Shown here piece after piece: positions 1 through 19,363 of a stretch of DNA of 19,997 bases; the stretch's first letter is position 1; each line of letters opens with the position of its first letter. Location: UHGV virus genome UHGV-0061455; one strand, written 5' to 3'. This DNA is from a virus. Below the pieces are notes generated by a model. That model was given only the letters and a program-made list of their open reading frames with translations, had not been told where the DNA came from and did not search any database. The position numbers were made by a program, and so were the translations under genes.

Positions 1-1
1 C

Positions 2-322
2 ATGGCTTATCAGTTCCCACTGATGTTACTGGTGATGAAAGCTAAGGAAGGTATAGACGGTAAGCCTAGCGATGATAGGAAGCTGATTATAGATGCAGTT
101 ATGAATATGTCTGCTCTGGGCGGCATCTCTCTTATTGCACCAATCTTTACCGGGGAGAAACCTCGCCACTCATTGACCAGCATGGCGTACATTACCAGCA
201 CCTTAAGCCTGTTACAGCAGGCAGCATCAGGTAATCTGGATGCGCAGTCACTGTCTAGGCAGCTCCCGCTTGTGCAGGAGTTCATGCCTACTCGTGCAAT
301 TATCAATAACTTTGGAGATTAA
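2..322 (+). CDS. Internal virion protein, C-terminal fragment (5' end lies outside the window)
   Basis: ORF open from the window edge and ending 3 nt before the tail fibre gene. Assignment is by synteny only (the gene preceding gp17-like tail fibre in T7-like phages is an internal virion protein); no diagnostic motif seen. Confidence 0.4.
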   Translation: MAYQFPLMLLVMKAKEGIDGKPSDDRKLIIDAVMNMSALGGISLIAPIFTGEKPRHSLTSMAYITSTLSLLQQAASGNLDAQSLSRQLPLVQEFMPTRAIINNFGD

Positions 323-324
323 GA

Positions 325-3030
325 ATGGCCTATAGTTGGGAAGAGCATCTGTATCCCGCAGGGACTACTAGCATCTCAGTGAATATTCAGTACTTAGACC
401 GCTCTTATATCTACCTGTACGTAGATAACGAGGAAGTGCTTGACTATACTTGGGAGAGCGACGTGCGCATCCGGTTGGATGCTGCACTTACTAAAGAGAG
501 TAAGGTACTAATTGTACGCCGTACAGCGGCGCATTACCTGTACATTAACTTCAAGTCAGGTGCTCCGTTTATCTCTGAGAACTTAGATACTCAGAATACT
601 CAGTTCCTGCACCTAGCTCAGGAGATGACGGAAGGTCGTAGTATCGAGGGATTCTACGGCGATATTAATATGAACGGCTTCCGCATCATTAATCTGGCAG
701 CAGGAGAAGAGGCTACAGACGCGATTAATAAGGCGCAGTTAGATGAAGTAGATTCTAAGGTAAAGGCGTTGGAGGGTACCTTTATAGGTCATACTAATAG
801 TTACCCATGGTACACCGTTATTGTGTCTCCTACGAAGATCATTGCACCTCCTTACTCGTTTACTAAAGCAGCTGTATATTTGAACGGAGTATGTCAAACT
901 CCGGGATATTCTTACAGTGTAGATAATAATACCATTACCTTAGCAGAGGAAGTTCCCGCGGGAACGCACGTGTTTGTGCGATTAGGGGAGGATATACTGG
1001 ATGCTACCTACGTCACAGTAGTAACTTACGCAGACCTTATTCAGCGTCTTACAGACCCAGACGGTGCAGTTAACAGTCCTGAACTTCAGGTGGCTAGGTG
1101 GAGAGACAACGGTGATGTTCGAGGCTGGGGAGCTAAGGTAGATGGAGGTGCAAACGACTCAGGCGCATTTAATGCGGTAGCCGGTGCACCTGCTCACGTA
1201 CCTAACGGTACATCCCGATGCAGTCCTGGTGTGTTTTCTATAGCTGGGTTGACCGGAGAAGTGAACTCAAAGCTTAAGCAGGTTGCTCCTGCAGGTAACT
1301 TCCTATCCTTCCGTCAGCCTGACGGGGGACGTATCGCTAACCTAGATATTGAATCTAATAAGGGAGGGGTAGTATCTGCACAAGGTCACCAGATTGACGT
1401 TCAGGATGGACGTAACGTTACTCTGGAAAACCTTAACTTTAAAGAAGCAGAGGGAACTGGATTTTCCATCATCACTTACAGTAATACTCTTCCATACCAA
1501 GAAGGGTTCATTGTAAAGGGTATTCGTGGGAAATACAATACATCTGTAGCAAACGCCGATGCAGGCTGTGTACTGTTAGACCGTAATCGTAAGTCGCTGG
1601 TTGACGGCGTTATTGCAACAGGTTACCCTCAGTTCGGAGCAGTAGAGCTTAAGAGTGATGCTAAGTATAACATCACGTCTAATATTATTGGAGATAACTG
1701 TGAGAGTACAGTTTACTTAGGTACTGAAACAGAGGCTACACCTAACGCCAATATCATCAGTAACATTATCTCAAGCAAGCCTGGGTTCAGCGCTGTAGAG
1801 GTAGGCAGAGGCCGCCACAATTTAATGTCTAATGTGCTGGCTGACTATACAGAGTCTACAGCAACATCAGCACACGGTGTGACTATGACGGGCGAGTCTA
1901 ATGTTGCTGATAACATACTCATGATGGGAAGTACCGGGGTTAACTCCATAGGCGGCGCGCAGGCGGCATATAATGCAAGATTCCGTGGCACTGCAAGGAA
2001 CAACTATGCCTCTATCTTCCCACACTACACCGCAACGGGGGTCGTGACTTTCGAGGGAGGTACTGCACGTAACTTTGTAGAGATTAAACATCCCGGCTCC
2101 CGCTCTAGTATTTTCGCGCAGGCTTCCACAATTACAGATAAGGCGACAATTACCGGGGACGTTAACAGTAACGTAGTGCATGCACCGGCACTTGGTCAGT
2201 ACTTCGGCACCATGTCAGGAACCTTCGATTGGCGTATCAAGGATGTTACTATCCCATCTGGAGTATTTGTTACAGCCGACCGATTCAGGTTCATATGCGA
2301 TGGCGCAGTTTCCATGGCTGTTGGCGGGGGGACTACATCTCAGTTGAAACTGTTCAACTCAGACGGTACGGCACGGACACTATCACTGAATCAAAACCAG
2401 TCTATCAGGTTGGATATAGGTTCAGGGAACTACCTGCAGTTCAGCTCTAATGTCCTGACACCTAGTCAGACTAACGCTTACTCATTAGGTAATGCGTCAA
2501 AGGCTTGGGCAGGAGGCACAACGCAGACCGCGTTTACAGTTCTATCAGATGAACGTGCTAAGAGCAAACCCTTGACGCTTGCTCGAGGCTCGTTAGCCGA
2601 TATTATAACTTCAGACGGGGAGCAGGTATACTCGTCTGACGCGGTTCTAGATGCTTGGGCTGAAGTAGATTTGGTACAGTACCAGCTGCTAGATCGTATT
2701 GAAGCGAAAGGTGAAGAAGGTGCCCGCTGGCATTTTGGTGTTCTCGCCCAACGTGCAGTTGAGGCATTCTCCCGTCATGGTCTGGACGCCCATCGGTTTG
2801 CTTTCCTGTGCTATGATGAGTGGGACGACCAGTACGGTAAAGTTCAGGTTGGTGATGGAGAGTATATAGAGGTACTGGAAACACCAGCAGGTAACCGTTA
2901 CGGCATCCGCTACGAAGAGGCTTTGATTCTTGAAGCAGCACTTCAACGTCGTAACTATAGCAGGTTGGTTGATAGTTTCAATAAGTTGTCATCTCGTATT
3001 GATGCTATTGAGGCGGTCTGCGCACCTTAA
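325..3030 (+). CDS. Tail fibre/tailspike: T7 gp17-like N-terminal anchor, central beta-helix (pectate-lyase-like, putative depolymerase), C-terminal intramolecular chaperone (peptidase S74-like) domain
   Basis: 901-aa ORF; GGAG RBS 7 nt upstream of ATG 325. N-terminal ~150 aa resemble the T7 gp17 adaptor domain. Central region shows repetitive Asn/Gly/Ser-rich pattern typical of right-handed beta-helices. Motif SDERAK near aa 741 resembles the auto-cleavage site of endosialidase-type chaperone domains. Confidence 0.85.
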   Translation: MAYSWEEHLYPAGTTSISVNIQYLDRSYIYLYVDNEEVLDYTWESDVRIRLDAALTKESKVLIVRRTAAHYLYINFKSGAPFISENLDTQNTQFLHLAQEMTEGRSIEGFYGDINMNGFRIINLAAGEEATDAINKAQLDEVDSKVKALEGTFIGHTNSYPWYTVIVSPTKIIAPPYSFTKAAVYLNGVCQTPGYSYSVDNNTITLAEEVPAGTHVFVRLGEDILDATYVTVVTYADLIQRLTDPDGAVNSPELQVARWRDNGDVRGWGAKVDGGANDSGAFNAVAGAPAHVPNGTSRCSPGVFSIAGLTGEVNSKLKQVAPAGNFLSFRQPDGGRIANLDIESNKGGVVSAQGHQIDVQDGRNVTLENLNFKEAEGTGFSIITYSNTLPYQEGFIVKGIRGKYNTSVANADAGCVLLDRNRKSLVDGVIATGYPQFGAVELKSDAKYNITSNIIGDNCESTVYLGTETEATPNANIISNIISSKPGFSAVEVGRGRHNLMSNVLADYTESTATSAHGVTMTGESNVADNILMMGSTGVNSIGGAQAAYNARFRGTARNNYASIFPHYTATGVVTFEGGTARNFVEIKHPGSRSSIFAQASTITDKATITGDVNSNVVHAPALGQYFGTMSGTFDWRIKDVTIPSGVFVTADRFRFICDGAVSMAVGGGTTSQLKLFNSDGTARTLSLNQNQSIRLDIGSGNYLQFSSNVLTPSQTNAYSLGNASKAWAGGTTQTAFTVLSDERAKSKPLTLARGSLADIITSDGEQVYSSDAVLDAWAEVDLVQYQLLDRIEAKGEEGARWHFGVLAQRAVEAFSRHGLDAHRFAFLCYDEWDDQYGKVQVGDGEYIEVLETPAGNRYGIRYEEALILEAALQRRNYSRLVDSFNKLSSRIDAIEAVCAP

Positions 3031-3044
3031 CTTAAGGAAACAAT

Positions 3045-3344
3045 ATGGCTAAGGCGGCTACAAAGAGTCGCCTCGCTGAACTGCATAAGATGTTCACCGA
3101 GGTGCTTATTTCAGAATTGCAGCAGGCTAAGGATGAAGAAATCCCGATGCCTGCTGCAGATAAATCAGTTATCGCTAACTTCCTTAAGAGCAATAACATC
3201 ACAGCGGATGCAGACTCTACGGAGATGCAGGACCTGCGTGATGAGTTCCAAGATGAGTTAGCAGAGAAACGTAAAGCACGGGCGTCTGAATTACTAGCGA
3301 AAGCTGGTGCAGACCCTGAAGACCCTCTAGCAGGTATTCTATAA
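3045..3344 (+). CDS. Putative terminase small subunit (DNA maturase A)
   Basis: 99-aa highly charged, helical-looking protein directly upstream of the large terminase. Assignment by size and position only. Confidence 0.4.
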   Translation: MAKAATKSRLAELHKMFTEVLISELQQAKDEEIPMPAADKSVIANFLKSNNITADADSTEMQDLRDEFQDELAEKRKARASELLAKAGADPEDPLAGIL

Positions 3345-3661
3345 TGAAGGTAAAACTTAACCCTTACCCCGTTACAGTAGATATTGTATTTAACCGGGAC
3401 GATTTCATTAAGCGCTACAAGAAGGTTCGTGGGTATTCCCCTGATATCGAAGGTTGCGGTGGGATGACTTCTTACCTATCGAGCGATGATTTGCTCATAG
3501 GGGTATTCAATTCCAAAGTGGGTACGCTTGTGCATGAACTTAATCATGCCCTGATTCACACTATGGAGTACGTAGGGTTAAGTATTACACCTCAGACATC
3601 CGAGGCGTACTGCTACTTAATGGATAGCGTGCTGGAACAGGCGCTCCCTAAACTCAAATAA
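3344..3661 (+). CDS. Hypothetical protein with HExxH zinc-metallopeptidase-like motif
   Basis: 105-aa ORF whose ATG overlaps the upstream stop (ATAATGA). Contains VHELNHALIH (HExxH plus a third His 4 residues later) and an upstream GCGG segment. Family unknown. Confidence 0.5.
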   Translation: MKVKLNPYPVTVDIVFNRDDFIKRYKKVRGYSPDIEGCGGMTSYLSSDDLLIGVFNSKVGTLVHELNHALIHTMEYVGLSITPQTSEAYCYLMDSVLEQALPKLK

Positions 3662-3672
3662 AGGAAGATACG

Positions 3673-5496
3673 GTGATTAGTCAAACTACACTGAACAGAT
3701 TGAAGCTAATATCTCAACGTACTACAGTAATGAATGACAGTCCCCGTACTATCCCCAAGGACCAGCGCGAGGAAGTGGCGCTTATGATGGCGGTAACTCT
3801 GAAGGATTTTAGAGAGTTCGCATACTTAGGTATGAAGTTCCTAGGTTTTGACCTTACAGAGATGCAGCGCGATATAGCAGACTTCATGCAGCATGGTCCG
3901 CGTAAGCGCATGGTAGCAGCACAGCGTGGTGAAGCTAAGTCTACGCTGGCTGCCCTGTACGCTGTTTGGCGGTTAATCCAGGACCAGAGTACCCGTATTC
4001 TTATTGTATCTGGTGGTGAGAAGCAGGCGTCTGAAGTAGCTACGCTTGTTATCCGTATGATTGAGACGTGGCCTTTACTATGCTACCTCAAGGCTGATAG
4101 TACCCGAGGTGATCGCACATCTTATGAAGGCTACGACGTTCACTGCGACCTTAAGCCTCTGGATAAGTCCGCTAGCATTGCGTGCGTAGGTATTACTGCG
4201 CAGCTGCAGGGTAAGCGTGCTGACCTGCTGATTCCAGATGATATCGAAACAACCAAGAACGGCCTAACGCAGACTATGCGTGAGCAGTTGCTGAACATCT
4301 CTAAAGACTTCGCCGCTATCTGTACTCATGGTGATACCTTGTACTTGGGAACACCTCAGACTAAGGATAGTATCTACAAAACCCTGCCGGGCCGTGGCTT
4401 TGAAGTTCGAGTCTGGCCTGGACGTATACCGAACGCAGAGATGCGTGAACGTTACGGAGAAACCCTAGCCCCGTATATTCAAACCCTCATCGACGCAGGG
4501 TACAAAGAGACTGGCTTCGGGTTAGACGGTACGTTAGGTGAGTGCACAGATAAAGGACGTTACAACGAAGAAGCGCTGATTGAGAAGGAACTGGACTTTG
4601 GTCCTGAAGGTTTCCAACTCCAGTACATGCTTGATACAACTATGTCCGATGCGCTGCGTACCAAGATTAAACTCTCCGATATGCTCGTGTACTCTGGTTC
4701 TCATGACTCTGCCCCAGACCGCTTAAGCTATATTGCTGATAAGCGCTACATGTTCGCAGAGGAGCATGAAGGTATCCGTGGCCAGTTACTGTACCAGCCG
4801 GCTAGCTATGGCGAGCACATGCTCCCGTACCAGCATAAGCTGATGGTAATCGACCCGGCAGGGTGCGGCGGGGATGAAGTGTCTTACGCCTGTGGCGGCG
4901 CAGCTAACTCATACATACACCTGTTCTCTGTAGGCGGCTTCCAAGGTGGCATTAGTACCGAGAACGTGGATAAGTTTATCGACATTGCTATAGAGATGGG
5001 AATCTCTGATATCTTCATCGAAAGCAACATGGGTCACGGTACAGTAGAAATGCTGTTCCAGAACCGCTTGAAGGAGCGTAGGCTTCCGGGTATCGGTGTC
5101 AGAGGCGGTTATAACACGTCTCAGAAGGAGAAGCGTATCATTGATACTATCTCCCCTGTTACGCGTCGTCATCGCTTTGTGGTGCATTCTAGGGCGCTTA
5201 CTGACGATATCCAAAGCTGTATGCAGTACAGTCGTGATAAGCGCTGGTTGTACAGTGCGTTCCAGCAGTTACAAGGAATTACCTATGACCGAGGCAGCCT
5301 TGCTAAGGATGACCGTGCAGACGCAGTGGCTATGCTTACTGCTGAACTGAACGGCTTCTTGGTAGAGGATGAGAAGGTTGTAGCGGAGAAGGAAATCAAG
5401 AAGAAGGCAATGGAGTTCCTAGCGAATCCGCTAGGGTGGACTGATGTAGATACCAGACCTAAGCGGCGAGGCACTGCATCGCGTATGAGTTACTAG
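3673..5496 (+). CDS. Terminase large subunit (T7 gp19-like)
   Basis: 607 aa; GTG start 5 nt after AAGGAAG RBS. Segments ILIVSGGEKQASE, ACVGITAQLQGKRADLLIPDDIE, LYLGTPQT and LMVIDPAGCGGDEVSYACGG align by eye with T7 gp19 ATPase and nuclease motifs. Confidence 0.9.
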   Translation: MISQTTLNRLKLISQRTTVMNDSPRTIPKDQREEVALMMAVTLKDFREFAYLGMKFLGFDLTEMQRDIADFMQHGPRKRMVAAQRGEAKSTLAALYAVWRLIQDQSTRILIVSGGEKQASEVATLVIRMIETWPLLCYLKADSTRGDRTSYEGYDVHCDLKPLDKSASIACVGITAQLQGKRADLLIPDDIETTKNGLTQTMREQLLNISKDFAAICTHGDTLYLGTPQTKDSIYKTLPGRGFEVRVWPGRIPNAEMRERYGETLAPYIQTLIDAGYKETGFGLDGTLGECTDKGRYNEEALIEKELDFGPEGFQLQYMLDTTMSDALRTKIKLSDMLVYSGSHDSAPDRLSYIADKRYMFAEEHEGIRGQLLYQPASYGEHMLPYQHKLMVIDPAGCGGDEVSYACGGAANSYIHLFSVGGFQGGISTENVDKFIDIAIEMGISDIFIESNMGHGTVEMLFQNRLKERRLPGIGVRGGYNTSQKEKRIIDTISPVTRRHRFVVHSRALTDDIQSCMQYSRDKRWLYSAFQQLQGITYDRGSLAKDDRADAVAMLTAELNGFLVEDEKVVAEKEIKKKAMEFLANPLGWTDVDTRPKRRGTASRMSY

Positions 5497-5504
5497 AAGG
5501 GGCA

Positions 5505-5900
5505 ATGGCCTCAATCATAGCAGCTAAGGATATTTCCAAGCAATATGAGATTGTAGGTAAATGCGAAGATACGTTCCGGCTGATAGGGTCTCGCTACCCT
5601 ATCGGCTTCAACGATAAGGCTAACATTGCAGAGAGTACTCTGTGGAACATGTCCTTACTGGCAATCTATCTCAAGGGGGAGGGCTACCCTGAATCCTTTG
5701 CTTCGGAGTACTTCGTCCGTGACGGGGAGCTTCAGGCGGAATTCGTACTATCCTTCCAAGAAGTAATCAACCTCGGCTACCAGCGCCTCAGTTCATGCTA
5801 CGGCAAGTTCGATGAAGCCCCCGGCACTGAGTTCGACGCAGCAATTCAACGTATGCAGGATGCGCTACGCGCAGCTACAGACGATATCAAAGACTATTAA
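5505..5900 (+). CDS. Hypothetical protein
   Basis: 131-aa ORF with GAAGGGG RBS, tightly packed after the terminase; no recognisable motif. Confidence 0.5.
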   Translation: MASIIAAKDISKQYEIVGKCEDTFRLIGSRYPIGFNDKANIAESTLWNMSLLAIYLKGEGYPESFASEYFVRDGELQAEFVLSFQEVINLGYQRLSSCYGKFDEAPGTEFDAAIQRMQDALRAATDDIKDY

Positions 5901-5910
5901 GGAGTTAATC

Positions 5911-6093
5911 ATGGCAGCAGCAAAAGCAACTCAGGCGCAGTTACAGGAACCTCTGCGCACAACTAACATCGTAGGCAAGGACTTGTACCAACTGCTTACT
6001 CAGCCTCAAGGCAAGGAGCAGGTAGGTCCGTCTATTGATGCGCTTATCTCGGCCCTGGAAGCCGCTGTAGCAGCAGTTAAAGCAGCAGCCTAA
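5911..6093 (+). CDS. Hypothetical small protein (Ala/Gln-rich, helical)
   Basis: ATG 5911 preceded by GGAG immediately after the upstream stop. The longer track ORF from 5812 overlaps the preceding gene and lacks an RBS, so the internal start is preferred. Confidence 0.4.
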   Translation: MAAAKATQAQLQEPLRTTNIVGKDLYQLLTQPQGKEQVGPSIDALISALEAAVAAVKAAA

Positions 6094-6506
6094 TGAAGTC
6101 ATTGGTCGCTGGGTTAATCCTCGCTACGGCTCTTACAGGCTGTTCAGCGACCTCTGCATTGACAGGTCTCATTGGCTCTAAGCCAGACCTGTCTGTGCAA
6201 GCTGGCGCAGAGAACACTAAACAAACTGTAGGCCTTAACGGCAAGTCCGACTCCAGCACGGACAACGAGACAACTATTAAAGATTCTAACGTAGGCACGC
6301 TGGATACTTCAACTAAGAAGCAGTCCAGTTCAGTTACTACTGGAACCATTAACACGGAGCGGGTACAGGTCGTAAACAATGACGGTACTAGCATAATTCT
6401 GGCAGGACTGGCAGGTGCAGCGGTTCCAATCGCAATCCTCATCATCGTCCTGTTGTTCCGCAAGCTCGGAAGAACTAAGGACGGGATCGATGAGTCTACC
6501 AATTAA
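6093..6506 (+). CDS. Putative unimolecular spanin (outer-membrane lipoprotein signal plus C-terminal transmembrane anchor)
   Basis: N-terminus MKSLVAGLILATALTGC has a signal peptide with LTGC lipobox; Ser/Thr-rich middle; C-terminal hydrophobic helix IILAGLAGAAVPIAILIIVLLF followed by basic residues. This topology matches T1 gp11-type u-spanins. ATG overlaps the upstream stop (TAATG). Confidence 0.55.
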   Translation: MKSLVAGLILATALTGCSATSALTGLIGSKPDLSVQAGAENTKQTVGLNGKSDSSTDNETTIKDSNVGTLDTSTKKQSSSVTTGTINTERVQVVNNDGTSIILAGLAGAAVPIAILIIVLLFRKLGRTKDGIDESTN

Positions 6507-6738
6507 CGGGGAAACTATCACCCGTGTAGGAACAAACGTATCTGTCGCTACTATGGGTGGCGGATGGATGGCAGACGTAATGTCTTGGAACTGGGGTACA
6601 ATCTCGTTCATCGTCGGTACGGTAATGGCTGTACTGACCTTCGCATGGAACGCGTACTACAAGCACAAAGAGTATAAGCTCAAGGAAAAGGCACTGGAGA
6701 AGGGGCTGGCATACTATAAGCATAAGCAACAAGGTTAA
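6490..6738 (+). CDS. Putative holin (possibly pinholin-like)
   Basis: 82 aa from ATG 6490. One strongly hydrophobic helix GTISFIVGTVMAVLTFAW preceded by a weaker hydrophobic segment, then a highly charged Lys-rich C-terminus. Sits immediately upstream of the endolysin. Confidence 0.45.
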   Translation: MSLPINGETITRVGTNVSVATMGGGWMADVMSWNWGTISFIVGTVMAVLTFAWNAYYKHKEYKLKEKALEKGLAYYKHKQQG

Positions 6739-6784
6739 AGCTGCACTGGCAGGGGCAACCCTGCTGGGCGGCAGTATCACTGCT

Positions 6785-7258
6785 GTGATTCAGCATAACG
6801 AGGGGTTGTCCCTGACGGCCTACAAAGATTCAGCCGGTGTACCTACCATCTGTTATGGTGAGACTAAAGGCGTACAGATAGGCCAGAAACGCACGCTAAC
6901 GCAATGTCAGGAGCAACTGATACGTTCGGCAGAGGGGCACGCTAAGGCGCTTGACGGCCTTCCTATGACGCTTACAGACGTACAGTTACTTGGCGCTCTG
7001 GACCTGACCTATAACATCGGTATCTCTGGATTCAAGAACAGTACAGTAAAGCGCAAGCTAATGCAAGGCGATACTAAAGGTGCCGCTCAGGCTGTCTTAG
7101 CGTGGCGCTACATCACCGTTAAAGGTAAGAAGTACGACTGTAGTATAGAAGGTAATAAGGTCTGCTACGGGCTCTGGAAGCGCCGTTTGTGGGAATCCCA
7201 AGCTATTGGCAACGAATTTAAATCAGTGCAAGCAGCATTAGCTGCTATTCCTAAGTAA
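6785..7258 (+). CDS. Endolysin, T4-lysozyme-like muramidase (glycoside hydrolase family 24), probably SAR-type with an N-terminal extension upstream of the listed start
   Basis: EGLSLTAYKDSAGVPTICYGET has the E-x8-D-x5-T catalytic spacing of T4/lambda/P22 lysozymes. The frame is open upstream to 6638 and encodes KVKAALAGATLLGGSITAVI, a Gly/Ala-rich hydrophobic stretch resembling a signal-arrest-release domain, but with no ATG/GTG/TTG in frame. Coordinates given are the conservative GTG start. Confidence 0.8.
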   Translation: MIQHNEGLSLTAYKDSAGVPTICYGETKGVQIGQKRTLTQCQEQLIRSAEGHAKALDGLPMTLTDVQLLGALDLTYNIGISGFKNSTVKRKLMQGDTKGAAQAVLAWRYITVKGKKYDCSIEGNKVCYGLWKRRLWESQAIGNEFKSVQAALAAIPK

Positions 7259-7267
7259 GGATTAGGT

Positions 7268-9013
7268 ATGACCCTAGTAAAGTTAGTTGAAGTAGAACTG
7301 GATACCTTGCACGTAGACCACTCTGGGTTAGTGCTTAATACGTACTTGAATGACAACGGGTACAACCTGCGTCAATGGGTAGACTCTGATGCAGCAGATG
7401 CACGAGAAGGAATGCAAGCTGCTATTGACTATATTGAGTCAGTTGGTGGAGGTACGTTAATTATCCCAGATGGTACTTGGATTCTTAACAGTATCAGTAC
7501 TGGCCCAGTGTCCGGGCACAGTGGACTCATTCAGCTTAAGAACAATGTAAGCATTAAGCTGGACGGTGTAGTTAAAGTAGGCCCTGCCTTAGCTAATAGT
7601 TCCTTCCAGGTCTTCGTCGGCTTCACTGATGCCAATCCAGCTAACTCTGGTAACTTGGACAACTGTCACATCTTTGGTGAAGGTAGCATTGACTTTGGAG
7701 GTTATGATTTTGCTGACTCAGGTCACTTGCGCAATGGTATCGCATTTGGTAAGGGGTATAACTGTTCAGTAGATGGCATTACGTTCATTAACGGTGACAT
7801 TACATGGGCTATAACACTTGGGTGGAACGGATATGGTTCAGACTCTTATGTCCGCAACTGCCGCTTCATTAACCTCATCCAAAGTAACGTGAACCGCGAC
7901 CATAGTACAGTGTACGTTAACTGCCCGTTCAGTGGGGTCACTGACTGCACCTTCCGCGCAAGCTCTGCGCGTGCCAAGGTAATAGCATGCACTGTGGAGT
8001 TACATCAACACGACACCTACTACCGCAATAGCAGCATCTCAGGATATACGCGTGGGTGCTATGTAGCGCTGCATGGTTCTGAGTCTGTTGGTGCAGGTAC
8101 GTACCTGTATAATGCCGAAGTCTCTGGGGTCATCGGAGATATCTCTGGTCAGGCCGTTATATTAGCTGCAGGCCCAGACGCTATAGCTACTACGCACATT
8201 CATGGCCTTACGGTATCTAACTGCCGGTTCACTGCTGGGAACTACCCGGGCATGTGCAGCTTCATTGACTTCTTCCAAGATGGTAACTCTGACTCAAGTC
8301 AGTACCTTATCAATCACGTTACGGTTAAGGGGTGCAGCTTCATCGTAGACCGCAGCCGTTCTCTTAGTGCAGCCATTACCCTGAACGGGAGTATTCAAGG
8401 TATCACCTTCCAGGATAACTTCTTCGATGTTAAGCAGGCTATGGTATCGGAACTCCCTAGCGGACGCACTGTGCAGTTAGAGCGCTTTAACTGGGATGCT
8501 AGCAATATCATCGGCGGCGATAACACTGGTACTCGTACTGGCCTGAACCTGTTTGAGACTCGGCGAGTATCCAGTATGTTGCGCTGTAACATTCAACTGC
8601 ATATGCGTCAGCCTAGTGTGGACCTGTACAGCTTTATGTACTTCCGTCCCGGTATCTCCTTCAGTGAGTGTACTATAGAGGTTCTACCTTACAACTGGGG
8701 TACTAGTTCAGGTAATGCACTGTTCTTTGAAGAGGGTGGCGTTCCTCCCCTGAACGTACATTGCAGCTTCCCTAAACAAGTATCTGTAACTCTCGCATCT
8801 GGTTCGAACGTGCAACGCGCTACGGTATCAGGTAACTACGCTTGGGTTGCCCGTGCAGACGCTCTGGATAGACGTGGTATTTCAGGTCAGTTCGATGCCC
8901 CTGCTAGTTACGCAGGTAGCAGCAACGGTCAGTTAACAGGCTTAGGTTGGCAGCTTGATGGGCTTCAACATACGTATGACCACAACGTGCTTCTTACAGG
9001 GCGCAGTAACTAA
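7268..9013 (+). CDS. Second tailspike, beta-helix polysaccharide depolymerase (pectate-lyase-3-like), no T7-type anchor domain
   Basis: 581 aa; AAGGA RBS. N-terminus DAREGMQAAIDYIESVGGGTLIIPDGTWIL resembles the start of pectate-lyase-fold phage depolymerases. Internal repeats (NCHIFGEGSIDF, NCRFINLIQSN, VTDCTFRAS, SNCRFTAG, KGCSFIVD) are typical beta-helix rungs. Confidence 0.75.
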   Translation: MTLVKLVEVELDTLHVDHSGLVLNTYLNDNGYNLRQWVDSDAADAREGMQAAIDYIESVGGGTLIIPDGTWILNSISTGPVSGHSGLIQLKNNVSIKLDGVVKVGPALANSSFQVFVGFTDANPANSGNLDNCHIFGEGSIDFGGYDFADSGHLRNGIAFGKGYNCSVDGITFINGDITWAITLGWNGYGSDSYVRNCRFINLIQSNVNRDHSTVYVNCPFSGVTDCTFRASSARAKVIACTVELHQHDTYYRNSSISGYTRGCYVALHGSESVGAGTYLYNAEVSGVIGDISGQAVILAAGPDAIATTHIHGLTVSNCRFTAGNYPGMCSFIDFFQDGNSDSSQYLINHVTVKGCSFIVDRSRSLSAAITLNGSIQGITFQDNFFDVKQAMVSELPSGRTVQLERFNWDASNIIGGDNTGTRTGLNLFETRRVSSMLRCNIQLHMRQPSVDLYSFMYFRPGISFSECTIEVLPYNWGTSSGNALFFEEGGVPPLNVHCSFPKQVSVTLASGSNVQRATVSGNYAWVARADALDRRGISGQFDAPASYAGSSNGQLTGLGWQLDGLQHTYDHNVLLTGRSN

Positions 9014-9466
9014 GTAATAAACCTGTGGGTGCCTGAGGGTGCCCTGGGATTTCCTGGGATTGCACGTGTAAACGTACACCTAGAAAATATTATACTCACG
9101 CGAGGCCCTCCCTCACCCGACCAAGGCGTCAATCCCCCCATGGGGTAGGCCTCTGGGAATTCACAGGGTGGGGTAGTGGGAGAGGGTGCTAATCCCTCTG
9201 CGTATACTGTGTGCTGCGCTAGACGCTCTGTATCGCTCTGTATCGCTCTGTATCGCTCTGTGAGTCTATAGCAGTACCTAAGGGACACTTCGTGTCTCTA
9301 CGCTGTACAAGGCAAGCCTCTGTGCTTCTCTGTGCTCTCTCTTATGAGGGCAGGAGGGGGCGCATGCTTGCCTATTTTTATGCACGCTGTGCAGTACTGT
9401 ATGCCGCTGCTATACCTCTGTGTATGCGCAGTAGCTTACCTCTTTTGCCTCTAGGCTATGCAATGC
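9014..9466. other. Non-coding genome-terminus or terminal-repeat-like region
   Basis: About 450 nt with no credible ORF between the last late gene and the first early promoter. Contains tandem short repeats, CTCTGT-type motifs, a CCCCATGGGG palindrome and C-rich/G-rich inverted arms. T7-like genomes have short repeat arrays next to their terminal repeats. Confidence 0.5.
9224..9261. repeat. Tandem repeat, about 3.8 copies of 10-bp unit CGCTCTGTAT
   Basis: Read directly: cgctctgtat cgctctgtat cgctctgtat cgctctgt. Related CTCTGTG motifs recur at about 9318-9345 and 9415. Confidence 0.9.
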
Positions 9467-11127: not shown

Positions 11128-11371
11128 CTTTAAATCTGAATTAAAAATCTGGTTCTCCGCTGCTGCTGTAGCTACTGCGCTGATGTTCTCCGTTAAGGGC
11201 GCTCAGGCTGCCCCTAACAGCATAGAACTGTGTAATTGGGGTAAGTGGGCGTGGCAGCAGAACATTAAGCTAGACGCGCTTGTAGACGCCTTAAACAGCG
11301 TTGAGGCTATGCCCTACGATGATAAGCTGATTGTTGTGCGCTGCTTTGTTGAATCTATGGAGACTATGTAA
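11120..11371 (+). CDS. Early secreted/periplasmic small protein (Sec signal peptide)
   Basis: 83 aa; N-terminus MRNFKSELKIWFSAAAVATALMFSVKGAQA-AP has a basic n-region, hydrophobic core and AQA cleavage motif. Start overlaps the end of the lipoprotein gene, suggesting translational coupling. Confidence 0.6.
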   Translation: MRNFKSELKIWFSAAAVATALMFSVKGAQAAPNSIELCNWGKWAWQQNIKLDALVDALNSVEAMPYDDKLIVVRCFVESMETM

Positions 11372-11547
11372 TGTTTGATTTAACTACTACGAACGAAGTG
11401 CAGACGATGACTAGCCGTGAGATTGCCGAGTTAACTGGTAAGATGCACACCCATGTAATTGCTGATATTCGTAAGATGCTGGCAGAGATTGGAGGAGAAA
11501 CGAAATTCCGCTCGTCCTACATATCGGCTCAAAATAAATTAAAATAA
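11371..11547 (+). CDS. Short Rha-like protein (phage regulatory protein Rha N-terminal DNA-binding domain only)
   Basis: 58-aa ORF below the track's size cutoff; ATG overlaps the upstream stop (TAATG). TSREIAELTGKMHTHVIADIRKM matches the signature N-terminus of Rha/antirepressor-type proteins. Its last codons are the A+T-rich upstream element of P2. Confidence 0.5.
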   Translation: MFDLTTTNEVQTMTSREIAELTGKMHTHVIADIRKMLAEIGGETKFRSSYISAQNKLK

Positions 11548-11817: not shown

Positions 11818-12237
11818 ATGAAAGCTACCCGTTCAAACTGGAAAGAAGCTAAAGGCCTGGTTAAGGTAACAACTAAAAGTATGCCTTGCCTTAAGACAGA
11901 AGCAGCACAAGACGAAGGTGCAGTTGCAATGGAACGTAAGCACGCCATGGAGCTTGCAGCGTACAACTCTGAAGCACGCCGTGCAGAGCTTGTAGAGCTG
12001 GCTAACAAGCCTGAAGGTACTGAAGCACGTAAGGTACTGCGTAAGATGCAGACCTTCACTACTAAGCCTCAGTCAATCCCCAGCAATGATTACAGCATGA
12101 AGCTCAGCCAGCGTCGTGCTAAATCTGAAGAATACAACGAGCGTGGCGAGCGTACTTGCCGCCCTTCAAGCAAGACCTGTCAGCGCATTAACAGTTATTT
12201 CCGCAGTAAGTCCTCTACACCTAAAGGAGTTAAATGA
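11818..12237 (+). CDS. Hypothetical early protein (basic, Lys/Arg-rich)
   Basis: 139-aa ORF with AAGAGG RBS; first gene after P2 and R2. Its first three codons match those of the lipoprotein gene after R1. Confidence 0.6.
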   Translation: MKATRSNWKEAKGLVKVTTKSMPCLKTEAAQDEGAVAMERKHAMELAAYNSEARRAELVELANKPEGTEARKVLRKMQTFTTKPQSIPSNDYSMKLSQRRAKSEEYNERGERTCRPSSKTCQRINSYFRSKSSTPKGVK

Positions 12238-12329
12238 TGGTGGGTCATACTAATCAATCTACTGAATGGGAACGTCAGCGTGAAGCTGAGATGTTTAAAC
12301 TGTATAAGGAGTTAACGAAATGGCACTGA
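12237..12329 (+). CDS. Possible small ORF (30 aa)
   Basis: AAGGAG RBS 7 nt upstream of ATG 12237; overlaps the start of the next gene. Small and unsupported beyond RBS and packing. Confidence 0.25.
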   Translation: MVGHTNQSTEWERQREAEMFKLYKELTKWH

Positions 12330-15916: not shown

Positions 15917-16381
15917 ATGAGCACTTGCATAGATCATGGTAAGTGTAAAAGCTTATCACCTGAAGGGTATTTATTAGTTACACGTCCTGAGTATTTCAGC
16001 AGAGGTTGTAAGACTAGAAGCATTGCTAAGCATAGGCTAGTACTTCTTACAAAGCTGGGTATAAACTGGTGGGATGAAGAGGCTAAGGATTTAGTAGCGC
16101 TCCACACTTGCGATAATCCTAGATGTATTAATCCCGAGCATCTGGTAGCAGGAACCCGTGGGGACAATAACAGAGATAGGGCAGAAAGAGGGAGAAGTGC
16201 TAAGAAGGTTCCTAGTAAGTGGAAGCTTACCCCTACTGATTGCAAAGCTATAATTAACTCTTATAACAAGAAAGATAGGGAGAATAACAAAAGCGCCTTA
16301 TCAGCACGTTTCAAAGTAGACCGTAAGATAATCACTCAAGTTTTAGAAGGAACATATAGTGGCCTCGATTTTAATCTTTGA
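15917..16381 (+). CDS. HNH homing endonuclease
   Basis: 154 aa; GGAGG RBS. HTCDNPRCINPEHLVAGTRGDNNRD matches the HNH_3-type motif. Gene is visibly more A+T-rich than the flanking helicase and polymerase genes. Confidence 0.8.
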   Translation: MSTCIDHGKCKSLSPEGYLLVTRPEYFSRGCKTRSIAKHRLVLLTKLGINWWDEEAKDLVALHTCDNPRCINPEHLVAGTRGDNNRDRAERGRSAKKVPSKWKLTPTDCKAIINSYNKKDRENNKSALSARFKVDRKIITQVLEGTYSGLDFNL

Positions 16382-17504
16382 TATTGAAACTCAAAACGTG
16401 CCTTACTTTGGAGGGGTAGCTACTCCGTACTGCCCTGAGAACTACATCGTAGAATCAGGGTTCAGGATTGATAGAACTAATCCAGATGGTACAGTAACGT
16501 GCAGTGATGTAGGCAGCGTACGTTATGAATCAAGAGAAGAGTTCTTGCAGGCAGACCCTAAGCAGTGGTTACCTATTCAGGAAGATACATGGTTAATCGT
16601 GGCCCATAACGCTGCGTATGAGATTAGCTGGGCACTGACGTTTGCTAGGGAAGAGTTTGAGGCATTCCTGAAAAGAGGTGGACGTGTATTTGATACAATG
16701 CAGGGGCAATACATCGCCTCTGACTTCCAAGACCTTTACCCGTCACTGGATGAGACGGCCCCCAAGTATGGTGGCAGTCACAAGGTTGATGGTGTTAAGC
16801 TGCTGTGGCAGCAGGGAGTATTAACAGCAGATATTGACCCAGTACTACTGCATGAGTACCTAACAGGGCCGGAAGGAGACATCGTCAATACTGCACTGTG
16901 CTTCTACGGGCAATGTGCATTGTTCGCTGAGCGTGGGCAGATGCCTATGGTCTGGGAAAGGATGGATAGTGTAGTAGCCCTAGCCTACTGTGAGTTTAAT
17001 GGTGTGTACGTAGACATGCCTACAGCCAGAGCTAACCAGAAGGAGCAGGAGGACGCTATCGCAGTACTGAAGCAGACTCTGCAAGGCTTCTTGCCGGAAC
17101 TACCTGAAGGCTTTGAGTTCAACTGGAACAGTGGATACCACATGTCCGCACTGGTGTATGGCGGTATGGTTAAGTACAAGTGCAAGGTCCCGTATGACCC
17201 GCCGAAGTATGTGAAGAAGGAAGTGCAGGATGGGGTATATAAGTCAGGCCGTAACAAGGGCATGCCTAAGTACATTAAAGTAGACACAGACGAGCAGGCT
17301 ATGAAGTGGGGCGAGCGTTTGTATAAGTTCGAAGGACTTGTATGTATTAAGGACCTGCCGGCAGTACTACAAGAGAAGTATGCGGAGCGAGGAGAGTTCC
17401 GAGGTGCTCAGACATTAGCAGACGGTACAGCTGTATTCAGTACAGGTACGGATGCTATGAAAGAACTGGCTAACTATTTTATTGGGATTGAAGACGATGA
17501 GTAA
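16359..17504 (+). CDS. DNA polymerase (family A), N-terminal fragment with 3'-5' exonuclease domain
   Basis: 381 aa from GTG 16359 (GAAGGA RBS 7 nt upstream), overlapping the HNH gene end. Exo I motif ILIFDIETQ and Exo II VAHNAAYEISWAL align with T7 gp5 (IVSDIEANA, VFHNGHKYDVPAL). ORF stops where the methyltransferase gene begins. Confidence 0.8.
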   Translation: MASILIFDIETQNVPYFGGVATPYCPENYIVESGFRIDRTNPDGTVTCSDVGSVRYESREEFLQADPKQWLPIQEDTWLIVAHNAAYEISWALTFAREEFEAFLKRGGRVFDTMQGQYIASDFQDLYPSLDETAPKYGGSHKVDGVKLLWQQGVLTADIDPVLLHEYLTGPEGDIVNTALCFYGQCALFAERGQMPMVWERMDSVVALAYCEFNGVYVDMPTARANQKEQEDAIAVLKQTLQGFLPELPEGFEFNWNSGYHMSALVYGGMVKYKCKVPYDPPKYVKKEVQDGVYKSGRNKGMPKYIKVDTDEQAMKWGERLYKFEGLVCIKDLPAVLQEKYAERGEFRGAQTLADGTAVFSTGTDAMKELANYFIGIEDDE

Positions 17505-18204
17505 TTTTATAAACATTATGCACGGTGACTGTCTGGAGTTGATGAAGGAAATTCCAGCTAAAAGTGTAGATATGGTACTTTGCGACTTACCTTATGGGAC
17601 TACTCAATGTAAATGGGATGTGATTATAGATTTTAAAATGTTATGGGAAAACTACGGTAGGGTAGTTAAGGATACGGGCGCTATAGTCCTAACGGCGGCG
17701 CAGCCGTTCACAAGTACGCTGGTAGTAAGTAATATTAAGAACTTCAAATATCAATGGGTTTGGAAGAAATCAAGACCTACAGGACATCTTAATGCTAAGA
17801 AGCAACCGTTACGGAACACTGAAGACATTCTCGTCTTCTATAAGTCGCAGTGTACGTATAATCCTCAAGGTACACGAGAAACAGACGTCATGGTGTCACG
17901 TACAAACAGGGGCAATTACGGGGAATGTTCAAAAACCACACGGCAGACGGTAACCGGTTACCCTACTACGATTCTGGAATTTGCATCTGAAGTAGGGGAA
18001 CACCCAACACAAAAGCCAGTCGCACTTATGGAGTATCTAATTCGTACATATACAAACGAAGGTGATACTGTTCTAGACAATTGCATGGGCAGTGGTACTA
18101 CGGGGGTAGCAGCTAAGAATACACTCCGTAATTTTATAGGTATCGAAAAGGATGCTACATACTACGATATAGCATTCAATCGCATTCATAATTCAAACGT
18201 GTAA
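17497..18204 (+). CDS. DNA methyltransferase (N6-adenine/N4-cytosine, beta-class)
   Basis: 235 aa from ATG 17497 (overlaps the Pol-N stop). N-terminus MSNFINIMHGDCLELMKEIPAKSVDMVLCDLPYG carries a DLPY variant of motif IV (DPPY). HPTQKP and DNCMGSGTTGVAAK...NFIGIEKD (motif I) are family signatures. Visibly A+T-rich versus neighbours. Confidence 0.85.
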   Translation: MSNFINIMHGDCLELMKEIPAKSVDMVLCDLPYGTTQCKWDVIIDFKMLWENYGRVVKDTGAIVLTAAQPFTSTLVVSNIKNFKYQWVWKKSRPTGHLNAKKQPLRNTEDILVFYKSQCTYNPQGTRETDVMVSRTNRGNYGECSKTTRQTVTGYPTTILEFASEVGEHPTQKPVALMEYLIRTYTNEGDTVLDNCMGSGTTGVAAKNTLRNFIGIEKDATYYDIAFNRIHNSNV

Positions 18205-18211
18205 GGTATGT

Positions 18212-19363
18212 ATGACTACTCAAGCGTCTTCATTCTTTAAAGCATACAACGAACTAACCCTGCGCCAGAAGGACTTAGGCTTCTATGAGGTTAAGGACTA
18301 CAACAAGGATGGTAGCCTGCGTAAGACTACGGGGATGCTTCCTTATGTAATACCTCAGAAGGAAGACGGTAGTGGCATCATTCATCACCGCCTGAATCAC
18401 TGTTCAACTACAACCGGGAGGCTGTCAGCGTCTAACCCGAATATGCAGCAGCTGCCGCGTGAGTCTAAGGTTAAGCAGATTCTTCGCAGTCGCTATGGTG
18501 AGCAGGGCATGATTGCACAGTGCGACTACTCAGCTATGGAAGTTGTAATGGGCTGTGTAATTACCGGTGATAAGAAGCTCCTGTCCCTGCTTGAAGATGG
18601 TACAGACATGCACTGCTACCGCTTAGCATTCCAAGAGGGTATGCCATATGAAGAAGTCTACGAGCTTTGCCATAACCCGGATGCACTGAACCATAAAGAA
18701 TGGAAGAAGAAACGAACAGCAATCAAAACGTTCAGCTTCGCAGCGCAGTACGGAGCTTCCGCTAAAGGATTGGCGTTCGCCTCTGGTGCCAGCCTGAAGG
18801 ATGCTGAGAAGTTCTTAGCTAACGAAGAAGCCCTGTTCCCTGAGTCTATTAAGTATCGCGATGTAATCGCAGCAGAAGTAAACCGCACTGCATTACTGGA
18901 ACCTATCCGTCGTGAGCAGTCAGATGACGGTAGCTGGCGTATCTACCGTGAGGGATACTTCACTGCACCTTGCGGTACTCGCTACCGCTTCCGTCAGAAA
19001 CCTGTGTGGCGTGAAGGGAAGCAGGTCATGGACTTCAAGCCTACAGAGATGGCGAACTATCCGTTTCAGGGCTCAGGTTCCCTGCTTATGCTGATTGCGA
19101 TGGGTATGATTCTGCGTGCAGGGTTAGCGGATAACTGGATGGACGGTAAGTGGTGCATCCTTGCCACTGTGCATGATGCCGTCTATGCAGATTGTGCAGA
19201 CGAAGAGACAGCTAATAAGGTAGGGCAACTTATCAAGCGCTGTATGGAAGGGGCACGCGACCGTATGCTAGCACTGTGGCCTGAGTTTGGTATCCTTAAA
19301 GATGTAAAGTTCCCAGCAGAAGCCGGGCTTGGTAAATCCTTCAAGGAAGAGTACACGATTTAA
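18212..19363 (+). CDS. DNA polymerase (family A), C-terminal fragment with polymerase domain
   Basis: 383 aa. TTTGRLSASNPNMQQLP (O-helix-preceding motif), DYSAMEV (motif A), RTAIKTFSFAAQYGAS (motif B) and VHDAV (motif C) match Pol I/T7 gp5. Confidence 0.85.
   Translation: MTTQASSFFKAYNELTLRQKDLGFYEVKDYNKDGSLRKTTGMLPYVIPQKEDGSGIIHHRLNHCSTTTGRLSASNPNMQQLPRESKVKQILRSRYGEQGMIAQCDYSAMEVVMGCVITGDKKLLSLLEDGTDMHCYRLAFQEGMPYEEVYELCHNPDALNHKEWKKKRTAIKTFSFAAQYGASAKGLAFASGASLKDAEKFLANEEALFPESIKYRDVIAAEVNRTALLEPIRREQSDDGSWRIYREGYFTAPCGTRYRFRQKPVWREGKQVMDFKPTEMANYPFQGSGSLLMLIAMGMILRAGLADNWMDGKWCILATVHDAVYADCADEETANKVGQLIKRCMEGARDRMLALWPEFGILKDVKFPAEAGLGKSFKEEYTI

What the first reader, a model, noticed from the sequence alone, without database searches (positions are those of the whole stretch)
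6638..7258. SAR-like endolysin N-terminus with no canonical start codon, overlapping the holin gene
The lysozyme domain is unambiguous, and the frame upstream of the first canonical start (GTG 6785) is open back to 6638 and encodes a Gly/Ala-rich hydrophobic stretch typical of a signal-arrest-release domain. That stretch contains no in-frame ATG, GTG or TTG; only ATA, ATC and CTG codons are present. Either initiation uses a non-canonical codon, or the holin and endolysin frames are joined by a frameshift or reinitiation event (the holin frame ends at 6738 inside this region), or the assembly has an indel here.
Basis: partly seen in the sequence, partly recalled or inferred. Interest (0 to 1): 0.55.

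Follow-up and report, generated by a model that had tools for sequence, protein, structure and literature searches.

The report
Endolysin start codon mutated to ATA
A gut coliphage's cell-wall-cutting enzyme gene has had its normal ATG start changed to ATA by a single recent base substitution seen in one stool sample; otherwise it is an ordinary membrane-tethered (SAR) endolysin, which probably still starts weakly at the ATA.

Summary
The lysozyme frame is open from 6638. It encodes a SAR-type N-terminal segment, and its only canonical in-frame start is GTG 6785, inside that segment.

The cause is one transition. ATA at 6716-6718 sits exactly where every relative has the endolysin's start codon. 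That holds for six close relatives, for 79 of 80 IMG/VR loci (the 80th is this same genome) and for all other protein clusters found. A sibling genome that is 99.5% identical, from a different sequencing run, has ATG there.

The same base change turns holin Glu77 into Lys. A second window-specific change at 6710 turns holin Glu74 into Ala. There is no indel, and nothing supports a frameshift fusion.

The Shine-Dalgarno site upstream of ATA 6716 is intact. The 22 codons of the SAR segment are unchanged at the protein level.

All contigs carrying ATA appear to be re-assemblies of one low-coverage human gut sample, so a read-level check is still needed.

Most likely reading: a recent, real, probably mildly harmful mutation in a standard KP34-like lysis cassette (u-spanin, S21-type holin, SAR endolysin). 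Translation would start at AUA at reduced efficiency. This is ordinary biology and of low interest.

The parts
6093..6506 (+). Unimolecular spanin: N-terminal lipoprotein signal with lipobox LTGC, and a C-terminal transmembrane domain
   Evidence: PHROG 1804 'Rz-like spanin', E = 6e-43. Hydropathy peaks at residues 1-17 and 98-122. Same position as the annotated 'putative spanin' in P64441 and PAS7.
6490..6738 (+). S21-type holin (predicted pinholin), 82 aa. The window allele carries E74A and E77K in the cytoplasmic tail.
   Evidence: Pfam PF04971, 31.7 bits against a cut-off of 26. PHROG 20 holin, E = 2e-18. All other cluster members retrieved end in GLEYYE..., against GLAYYK here. Tail net charge is +5 against +2.
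6696..6709 (+). Shine-Dalgarno region (GGAGAAGGGGCTGG) serving the endolysin start
   Evidence: Duplex with the 16S rRNA tail is -8.6 kcal/mol with a 6-nt spacer to 6716. That equals the holin's own ribosome-binding site (-8.7) and is stronger than any other in-frame candidate. The core GGAGAAGGGG is identical in four of six close relatives; the other two carry A at 6702.
6710..6710 (+). Window-specific substitution A>C (holin Glu74>Ala), 6 nt upstream of the endolysin start
   Evidence: All six close relatives and the 99.5% sibling L096 have A. It has no effect on predicted mRNA structure.
6716..6718 (+). ATA occupying the ancestral ATG start codon of the endolysin. G>A at 6718 also makes holin Glu77>Lys.
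   Evidence: ATG is at the aligned codon in P64441 (annotated endolysin start), ECO104, IMG/VR 3300010266, L090, L092, L093 and L096, and in 67 of 80 IMG/VR loci. The remainder have a canonical start nearby, except this genome.
6716..7258 (+). SAR endolysin ORF, 180 codons counted from the ATA; GH24 lysozyme
   Evidence: PF00959, E = 9e-25. Aligns to phage 21 R (PDB 3HDE) from residue 6, SAR segment included. Relatives are 179-205 aa.
6740..6790 (+). SAR hydrophobic core AALAGATLLGGSITAVI (residues 9-25), preceded by the basic residues K6 and K8
   Evidence: Hydropathy and composition. Zero non-synonymous and 4-5 synonymous differences against L003, L090 and L092 across 6719-6784.
6785..6787 (+). 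GTG chosen by gene callers (157-aa product). It is really the codon for Val24 inside the SAR helix.
   Evidence: Weak ribosome-binding site (-5.7 kcal/mol, 12-nt spacer). It is not a start in any relative.
6800..6847 (+). Catalytic triad codons with E-8-D-5-T spacing: Glu29 (6800-6802), Asp38 (6827-6829), Thr44 (6845-6847)
   Evidence: Read from the translation. The aligned block in R21 is EG..Y.D..GV.T.C.G.
6740..6772 (+). Strong local RNA hairpin just after the holin stop, inside the SAR-coding segment
   Evidence: -26.3 kcal/mol, z = -4.8 against shuffles. The sequence is kept in the close E. coli-phage clade only, with no covariation support. Its role is unknown and it may be incidental.

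Best explanation
This is a standard lysis cassette of the KP34-like / Slopekvirinae type: unimolecular spanin, S21-type holin, then a SAR (signal-arrest-release) GH24 endolysin.

In this genome the endolysin's ATG start (6716-6718) became ATA through one recent G>A transition. Because the two genes overlap, the same base change converts holin Glu77 to Lys.

The endolysin is most likely still made as the full 180-residue SAR protein. Initiator tRNA would pair with the near-cognate AUA, helped by the unchanged Shine-Dalgarno site 6 nt upstream and by ribosomes arriving from the overlapping holin ORF. Initiation efficiency would be reduced, from a few per cent up to perhaps 15% of ATG depending on context.

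The protein would then behave as its relatives are thought to. It is exported by Sec, tethered inactive in the inner membrane by the Gly/Ala-rich helix, and released and activated when the holin depolarises the membrane.

**Shown here:** the substitution, its polarity, the intact ribosome-binding site and the intact SAR coding sequence.
**Inferred:** that AUA is used, and that the resulting amount of enzyme supports lysis.
For: 1. **The start is orthologous.** The aligned codon is the annotated or called ATG start in every relative.
2. **The change is recent.** An independent sibling, Logan ERR10101420 (43.4 kb, 99.5% identical over 13.3 kb, same gene order), has GGAATACTATG and a 180-aa endolysin. 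Both 6710 and 6718 are derived in the window.
3. **The ribosome-binding site is intact.** The anti-SD duplex is -8.6 kcal/mol with a 6-nt spacer, the best of all in-frame candidates. The G>A change also lowers the predicted cost of opening the site from 10.0 to 6.8 kcal/mol.
4. **The SAR segment is undamaged.** It shows 0 non-synonymous and 4-5 synonymous differences against three relatives. The endolysin body has dN/dS of 0.05-0.11 against five of six close relatives and 0.19 against the most distant one.
5. **AUA can initiate in E. coli.** Reporters give 1-2% of AUG in vivo (bioRxiv 10.1101/063800). A T4 rIIB AUG>AUA mutant keeps about 15% at 25 C, and an AUA mRNA is highly active in vitro (PMC5499595).
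6. **A product from GTG 6785 would be useless.** It would lack the export segment, and pinholin pores are described as too narrow for endolysin passage (PMC4411677). A phage abundant enough to assemble into a 42.5-kb scaffold therefore needs the longer product.
7. **It is the only lost start in the window.** All 13 other genes whose N-termini could be projected keep ATG or GTG, and conserved genes show no frameshifts.
Against: - No expression data exist.
- All ATA-bearing contigs are 100% identical. Two of them name the same run (ERR414380), so they are almost certainly re-assemblies of one human gut sample at about 4x k-mer coverage. The allele has no independent replication.
- Differences between the window and its sibling are mostly non-synonymous (18 of 25). 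That pattern fits unpurged deleterious mutations or errors as well as it fits tolerated change.
- In-vivo reporter efficiency of AUA is low (1-2%), and the dose requirement for this endolysin is unknown.
Confidence: 0.6

Rival explanations
1. The mutation is real but disables the gene. The ATA allele makes too little SAR endolysin, so this genome is a lysis-defective or strongly delayed variant. It would have been caught transiently in one sample, or be carried along by co-infecting relatives that supply endolysin.
For: The window-versus-sibling differences look unpurged: 18 non-synonymous against 7 synonymous. AUA reporters give only 1-2% of AUG. Two of the re-assemblies break at 7357-7422, at the start of the tailspike gene, which would fit co-occurring related strains in the sample. 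No other lineage among about 200 relatives tolerates loss of the start.
Against: The allele is the assembly consensus of a phage abundant enough to give a 42.5-kb scaffold. A lytic phage that cannot lyse should not become the majority genotype. The ribosome-binding site and SAR coding sequence are intact. AUA retained substantial activity in the T4 rIIB case and in vitro.
Confidence: 0.2
2. Sequencing or consensus error. The phage actually has ATG, and the A at 6718 (and possibly the C at 6710) comes from miscalled bases in a low-coverage region of a single older Illumina data set.
For: The contig name gives k-mer coverage 4.0. All carriers trace to one sample or run. The differences from the sibling are rich in non-synonymous changes and include five A:T>C:G transversions, 6710 among them; from my own knowledge, that is a frequent Illumina error type.
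Against: Five assemblies with different contig boundaries agree base for base. They include a 'k127' MEGAHIT-style contig. A Logan contig of the same run also confirms eight of the other window-specific alleles at 1655-3401. From my own knowledge, not tested here, both kinds of assembler discard k-mers seen only once. Several other window-versus-sibling differences are shared with more distant relatives and so are real polymorphisms. G>A is an ordinary biological transition. An error landing on one particular codon in 20 kb has a prior of about 1e-4.
Confidence: 0.12
3. Translation now starts at GTG 6785. This gives a 157-residue soluble lysozyme that reaches the wall through the holin, so the phage has switched to a canonical holin-endolysin mode.
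For: GTG 6785 is the only canonical start and is what gene callers chose.
Against: The holin is of the S21 family, predicted in KP34-like phages to be a pinholin whose pores do not pass endolysins. The site is poor: -5.7 kcal/mol, a 12-nt spacer, immediately after a -26 kcal/mol hairpin. The catalytic Glu would be only the fifth residue. In R21, from my own knowledge (Sun et al. 2009), the released SAR helix refolds into the enzyme body and is needed for the active conformation. No relative starts there.
Confidence: 0.03
4. A +1 ribosomal frameshift, or termination-reinitiation independent of AUA, joins the holin and endolysin frames and produces a holin-SAR-lysozyme fusion.
For: The endolysin frame is +1 relative to the holin frame and is open for 101 nt before the holin stop. 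The topology of such a fusion would be formally consistent.
Against: Relatives have an ordinary ATG and Shine-Dalgarno site at this position, so no recoding exists in the family. I saw no slippery or stall motif in 6638-6738 on reading the sequence; no formal motif scan was run. A recoding signal would have had to arise together with a single point mutation.
Confidence: 0.02

Closest known systems
Phage 21 lysis pair: SAR endolysin R21 (PDB 3HDE/3HDF) and pinholin S21
   Same: The enzyme is a GH24 lysozyme with E-8-D-5-T spacing and an N-terminal Gly/Ala-rich weakly hydrophobic helix after basic residues. It aligns to R21 from residue 6, SAR segment included (E = 1e-14). The partner holin matches Pfam 'P21 holin S'.
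   Different: Sequence identity is low. Here the gene order is spanin-holin-endolysin with a unimolecular spanin, the holin shows no dual-start motif, and the endolysin start codon is ATA.
KP34-like (Drulisvirus / Slopekvirinae) lysis cassette: u-spanin, pinholin, SAR endolysin (PMC4411677)
   Same: Gene order is the same, the holin is of similar size (82 aa), the endolysin has a SAR N-terminus and the spanin is unimolecular. Klebsiella KP34-like endolysins are 55-61% identical across the full 180 residues. The closest named phages are classified as Slopekvirinae.
   Different: This is an E. coli-phage branch whose tailspike differs from those of the annotated relatives. The endolysin ATG has mutated to ATA, and the holin tail carries E74A and E77K.
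T4 rIIB initiation-codon mutant AUG>AUA (Belin et al. 1979, as cited in PMC5499595)
   Same: The same single transition in a phage start codon. The protein was still made from AUA at reduced level, about 15% at 25 C.
   Different: That was a laboratory mutant in a non-essential gene with measured expression. This is a natural allele in an essential lysis gene, with no expression data.
Regulated non-AUG starts such as infC (AUU)
   Same: A near-cognate AUN start codon behind a good Shine-Dalgarno site, giving low and IF3-sensitive initiation.
   Different: The infC non-AUG start is conserved across bacteria and is autoregulatory. Here the non-AUG start is confined to one genome and is absent from a 99.5% identical sibling, so it is not a conserved regulatory feature.

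Membership tests
SAR endolysin (R21 / P1 Lyz type, GH24) | T4-lysozyme-like (GH24) catalytic domain with an E-8aa-D/C-5aa-T triad | tested here: met
   PF00959, E = 9e-25. Glu29, Asp38 and Thr44 have the right spacing. Aligns to R21 structures 3HDE/3HDF.
SAR endolysin (R21 / P1 Lyz type, GH24) | N-terminal weakly hydrophobic Gly/Ala/Ser/Thr-rich transmembrane helix preceded by basic residues and directly abutting the catalytic domain | tested here: met
   K6 and K8 are followed by AALAGATLLGGSITAVI (65% G/A/S/T, hydropathy 1.78) and then QHNE(catalytic)G. The segment is conserved in all relatives.
SAR endolysin (R21 / P1 Lyz type, GH24) | The N-terminal segment is actually translated, meaning a usable start codon lies upstream of it | tested here: inconclusive
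   There is no ATG/GTG/TTG upstream. ATA 6716 sits at the orthologous start behind an intact Shine-Dalgarno site. Whether AUA is used has not been measured.
SAR endolysin (R21 / P1 Lyz type, GH24) | Sec-dependent export, membrane tethering, then release and activation on depolarisation | not testable with these tools
   This needs fractionation and lysis experiments.
S21-type holin (pinholin) | Sequence membership of the P21 holin S family | tested here: met
   PF04971, 31.7 bits against a gathering cut-off of 26, covering profile positions 10-63 of 64. PHROG 20 holin, E = 2e-18.
S21-type holin (pinholin) | Two transmembrane segments, the first weakly hydrophobic, plus a charged cytoplasmic C-terminal tail | tested here: inconclusive
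   There is one clear transmembrane domain (residues 33-52) and a weakly hydrophobic Gly-rich segment before it that stays below the hydropathy threshold. The tail is highly charged. The published KP34 analysis called one transmembrane domain.
S21-type holin (pinholin) | Forms small (about 2 nm) channels that do not pass endolysin | not testable with these tools
   This is predicted for KP34-like holins only because they pair with a SAR endolysin (PMC4411677).
Unimolecular spanin (T1 gp11 type) | One protein with an N-terminal lipoprotein signal (lipobox Cys) and a C-terminal transmembrane domain | tested here: met
   MKSLVAGLILATALTGC... gives the lipobox, and the C-terminal helix spans residues 98-122. 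PHROG 1804 spanin, E = 6e-43.
Conserved, regulatory non-AUG start (infC-like) | The non-canonical start codon is conserved among orthologues | tested here: not met
   ATA occurs only in this genome. Of 80 IMG/VR loci, 79 have canonical starts, as do all other protein clusters, and the 99.5% sibling has ATG.
Programmed frameshift or gene fusion at a gene overlap | Conserved slippery or stimulatory signal, and no independent start for the downstream frame in relatives | tested here: not met
   Relatives have their own ATG and Shine-Dalgarno site at the overlap. I saw no slippery motif in 6638-6738 on reading the sequence; no formal scan was run.

The most novel reading that the evidence does not exclude
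The G>A at 6718 was selected for its effect on the holin. Together with 6710 A>C it removes two acidic residues from the cytoplasmic tail (E74A, E77K; net charge +2 to +5), which would retune lysis timing. Because the genes overlap, the same base lowers endolysin translation 10- to 100-fold. On this reading one nucleotide co-tunes the timer and the enzyme dose of a pinholin/SAR-endolysin system, in a lineage whose other recent changes concentrate in host-interaction genes (8 of 8 non-synonymous in the tail fibre, 3 of 4 in the tailspike).
Probability: 0.12. Interest if true: 0.45.

Novelty: new member of a known kind. Interest (0 to 1): 0.2.

Why it matters
The main value is practical. Gene callers truncate this endolysin to 157 aa (Prodigal-style and IMG calls) and so lose the SAR export segment. 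Anyone mining the sequence for enzybiotics, or classifying the lysis system, would conclude wrongly that it is a soluble endolysin.

Biologically it is a natural example of a start-codon transition in an essential phage gene that sits inside a gene overlap, so one base changes two lysis proteins at once. If the allele is confirmed in the reads and shown to be functional, it would give a small natural test of how little SAR endolysin a T7-like phage needs. It does not reveal a new mechanism.

Tried and rejected
- **Indel or assembly frameshift: rejected.** The junction aligns without gaps to seven relatives. Against the 99.5% sibling it differs by two substitutions only.
- **Holin-endolysin frameshift fusion: rejected.** Relatives have an independent ATG and Shine-Dalgarno site, and I saw no slippery motif.
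- **6710 A>C compensating for the weak start through mRNA structure: rejected.** Predicted accessibility is unchanged by it. Only the G>A itself loosens the region, from 10.0 to 6.8 kcal/mol.
- **The 6740-6772 hairpin as a conserved element helping initiation: not supported.** It is strong (z = -4.8), but it is kept only where the sequence itself is nearly identical, and distant relatives show no compensatory changes.
- **The two substitutions 8 nt apart as evidence of selection: not significant.** With 25 substitutions in 9 kb, about 0.5 such close pairs are expected by chance (my calculation). Other unique changes also occur in close pairs.
- **Several assemblies as independent replication: rejected.** The IMG/VR, NCBI UMAM01, ENA ERZ919597, ERZ28596627 and ERZ1310330 contigs are 100% identical. 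Two name run ERR414380, so they are one sample.
- **Search for other ATA carriers: none found.** One IMG/VR pattern scan and the single metagenome scan found only this genome with ATA and one relative with ATG.
- **Polarising all window-versus-sibling differences: mostly failed.** Outgroups do not align in the tail-fibre and tailspike genes.

Full report
**1. What is in the sequence**

The window is ENA contig ERZ1310330 NODE_1251_length_19997_cov_4.0. It comes from a T7-like podophage whose closest named relatives are E. coli phages classified as Slopekvirinae: vB_EcoP_P64441 at 85% identity and vB_EcoP_PAS7 at 77%.

Around the finding lie three lysis genes.
- **Spanin, 6093-6506.** A lipoprotein-plus-C-terminal-transmembrane-domain protein matching PHROG 'Rz-like spanin' at E = 6e-43. 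It is a unimolecular spanin.
- **Holin, 6490-6738.** An 82-aa holin of the phage-21 S family (PF04971, above the gathering score).
- **Lysozyme, ending at 7258.** A GH24 lysozyme (PF00959, E = 9e-25).

The lysozyme frame is open from 6638, after TGA at 6635-6637. Its only canonical in-frame start before the catalytic domain is GTG 6785. Upstream there are only near-cognate codons: ACG 6650, ATA 6674/6716/6722, CTG 6746/6761/6764 and ATC 6776.

The stretch before 6785 encodes ISISNKVKAALAGATLLGGSITA. Together with the next residues it forms a basic-then-Gly/Ala-rich helix of the signal-arrest-release (SAR) kind. In composition and hydropathy it resembles the SAR segment of phage 21 R, to which it aligns.

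**2. What it is**

Alignment with relatives settles the start-codon puzzle. In P64441 the annotated endolysin starts at an ATG that aligns exactly with window ATA 6716-6718. The same holds for ECO104 4-5-2, IMG/VR 3300010266 and three metagenomic relatives.

Of 80 related IMG/VR loci, 67 have ATG at the aligned codon. All the others have a canonical start just before the SAR segment. The single exception is the contig that is this very genome. Among the 120 best protein clusters from 5.8 billion sequences, all but two are 179-205 aa (one is 173 aa). The only call truncated to the catalytic domain, at 157 aa, is this genome's own.

A sibling genome from another sequencing run, Logan ERR10101420, is a 43.4-kb contig that is 99.5% identical over 13.3 kb and has the same gene order. 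It reads GGAATACTATGAGC where the window reads GGCATACTATAAGC, and it encodes a 180-aa endolysin. Outgroups show that both differences are derived in the window.

So there is no indel and no recoding. The ancestral ATG suffered a G>A transition at 6718.

Because the endolysin start lies 20 nt upstream of the holin stop, the same base is the first position of holin codon 77 (GAG Glu > AAG Lys). The neighbouring change at 6710 makes holin Glu74 > Ala. Together they raise the net charge of the holin tail from +2 to +5.

**3. Is the allele real?**

Five records carry it: ENA ERZ1310330, ERZ919597 and ERZ28596627, NCBI UMAM01002916.1 and JGI 3300045988. They are 100% identical wherever they overlap. 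One is named after run ERR414380 (PRJEB5224, human gut), a sixth 100%-identical contig that does not reach 6718 is the Logan assembly of the same run, and a third is labelled with a sample from what appears to be the same study. I treat them as re-assemblies of one low-coverage sample, not as replication.

Arguments against a base-call error:
- Different assemblers agree, including ones that (from my own knowledge) drop k-mers seen only once.
- Several other differences from the sibling are shared with more distant relatives and are therefore real polymorphisms.
- The chance of an error hitting this one codon is very small.

Arguments for caution:
- Coverage is about 4x.
- The window-versus-sibling differences are mostly non-synonymous, 18 of 25. 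More distant comparisons give dN/dS of 0.05-0.11 in most cases and 0.19 for the most distant relative. An excess of non-synonymous change is expected for very recent, not yet purged mutations, but also for errors.

I put an error at about 0.12.

A control shows that this is the only lost start in the window. All 13 other genes whose N-termini could be projected from the P64441 annotation keep ATG or GTG, and conserved genes have identical lengths.

**4. How it most likely works**

The translation-initiation region is otherwise untouched. The Shine-Dalgarno stretch GGAGAAGGGG pairs with the 16S rRNA tail at -8.6 kcal/mol with a 6-nt spacer to 6716. That is as good as the holin's own site and better than any other in-frame candidate. 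GTG 6785 scores -5.7 kcal/mol with a 12-nt spacer and sits just behind a -26 kcal/mol hairpin. The G>A change itself lowers the predicted cost of opening the site from 10.0 to 6.8 kcal/mol. The 6710 change has no such effect.

The 22 SAR codons after the ATA are identical in protein to three relatives despite 4-5 synonymous differences.

AUA is a known near-cognate initiator in E. coli. Reporters give 1-2% of AUG in vivo (bioRxiv 10.1101/063800). A T4 rIIB AUG>AUA mutant keeps about 15% at 25 C, and in-vitro activity depends strongly on context and can approach that of AUG (PMC5499595).

A product from GTG 6785 would lack the export helix. The partner holin belongs to the S21 family, which in KP34-like phages is predicted to be a pinholin whose pores do not pass endolysins (PMC4411677).

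The genotype was abundant enough to assemble into a near-complete 42.5-kb scaffold. The most economical reading is that full-length SAR endolysin is still made from AUA at reduced level and that this suffices, possibly with delayed lysis. That AUA is used, and that the dose is sufficient, are inferences. Confidence is 0.6.

The main rival is that the allele is real but disabling, and transient or complemented by co-infecting relatives (0.2). Then come base-call error (0.12), a switch to the GTG 6785 product (0.03) and a frameshift fusion (0.02).

**5. Comparison with known systems**

The cassette matches the published KP34-like arrangement of u-spanin, holin and SAR endolysin. The enzyme and holin are homologues of the phage 21 R/S pair.

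The membership tests for a GH24 catalytic domain, a SAR-type N-terminus, the S21 holin family and a unimolecular spanin are met by sequence. Membrane behaviour cannot be tested here.

It is not a conserved regulatory non-AUG start of the infC kind, because the ATA is confined to one genome. The nearest precedent for the mutation itself is the T4 rIIB AUG>AUA initiation mutant.

**6. Verdict**

This is a real and correctly described oddity with an ordinary explanation. One recent point mutation, so far found in a single sample, hit the start codon of an otherwise standard SAR endolysin at a gene overlap.

The practical lesson concerns annotation. The 157-aa gene call is wrong about the protein's N-terminus and hides its export signal.

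The most novel reading still open is selection on holin tail charge, with endolysin down-tuning as a coupled effect of the same base. It is not excluded but has no specific support: the closeness of the two substitutions is not statistically unusual.

Interest is 0.2. Novelty: new member of a known kind.

Noticed in passing
window 1-9013 versus L096 (Logan ERR10101420_2173): The two genomes are 99.5% identical, yet 18 of their 25 coding substitutions are non-synonymous. All 8 in the 901-aa tail-fibre gene (325-3030) and 3 of 4 in the tailspike (7268-9013) change the protein. This suggests diversifying selection on receptor-binding proteins or unpurged recent mutations. Errors are not fully excluded.
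   Followed up: partly
window 6740-6772 (+): A very stable RNA hairpin (-26.3 kcal/mol, z = -4.8) starts 2 nt after the holin stop codon, inside the SAR-coding part of the endolysin. It is present in the close E. coli-phage clade and is not conserved as a structure in Klebsiella-phage relatives. Its function is unknown.
   Followed up: partly
window 16359-19363 (+): The family-A DNA polymerase is split into two ORFs (16359-17504 and 18212-19363), as in phage P64441 where the halves abut. In this genome a DNA methyltransferase gene (17482-18204; PF01555, E = 2e-29) sits between the two halves.
   Followed up: partly
window 9100-9345 (intergenic, downstream of the tailspike): This is the most divergent stretch against the 99.5% sibling. 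The window has extra sequence here that L096 lacks, including a perfect 10-nt tandem repeat (CGCTCTGTAT x 3.8 at 9224-9261) and further short repeats nearby. It may be the genome-end or terminal-repeat region between late and early genes.
   Followed up: no
window 7357-7422: Two other assemblies of the same genome (IMG/VR 31.7-kb contig, NCBI UMAM01002916.1) end within about 65 nt of each other, just inside the tailspike gene. This hints at co-occurring strains with different tailspikes in that sample.
   Followed up: no
window 11371-11547 and 12237-12329: Two small ORFs are much shorter than their P64441 counterparts: 58 aa against a 221-aa 'DNA binding protein', and 30 aa against 58 aa. The sibling L096 has the same short forms, so this is probably mosaic early-region content and not damage.
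   Followed up: no
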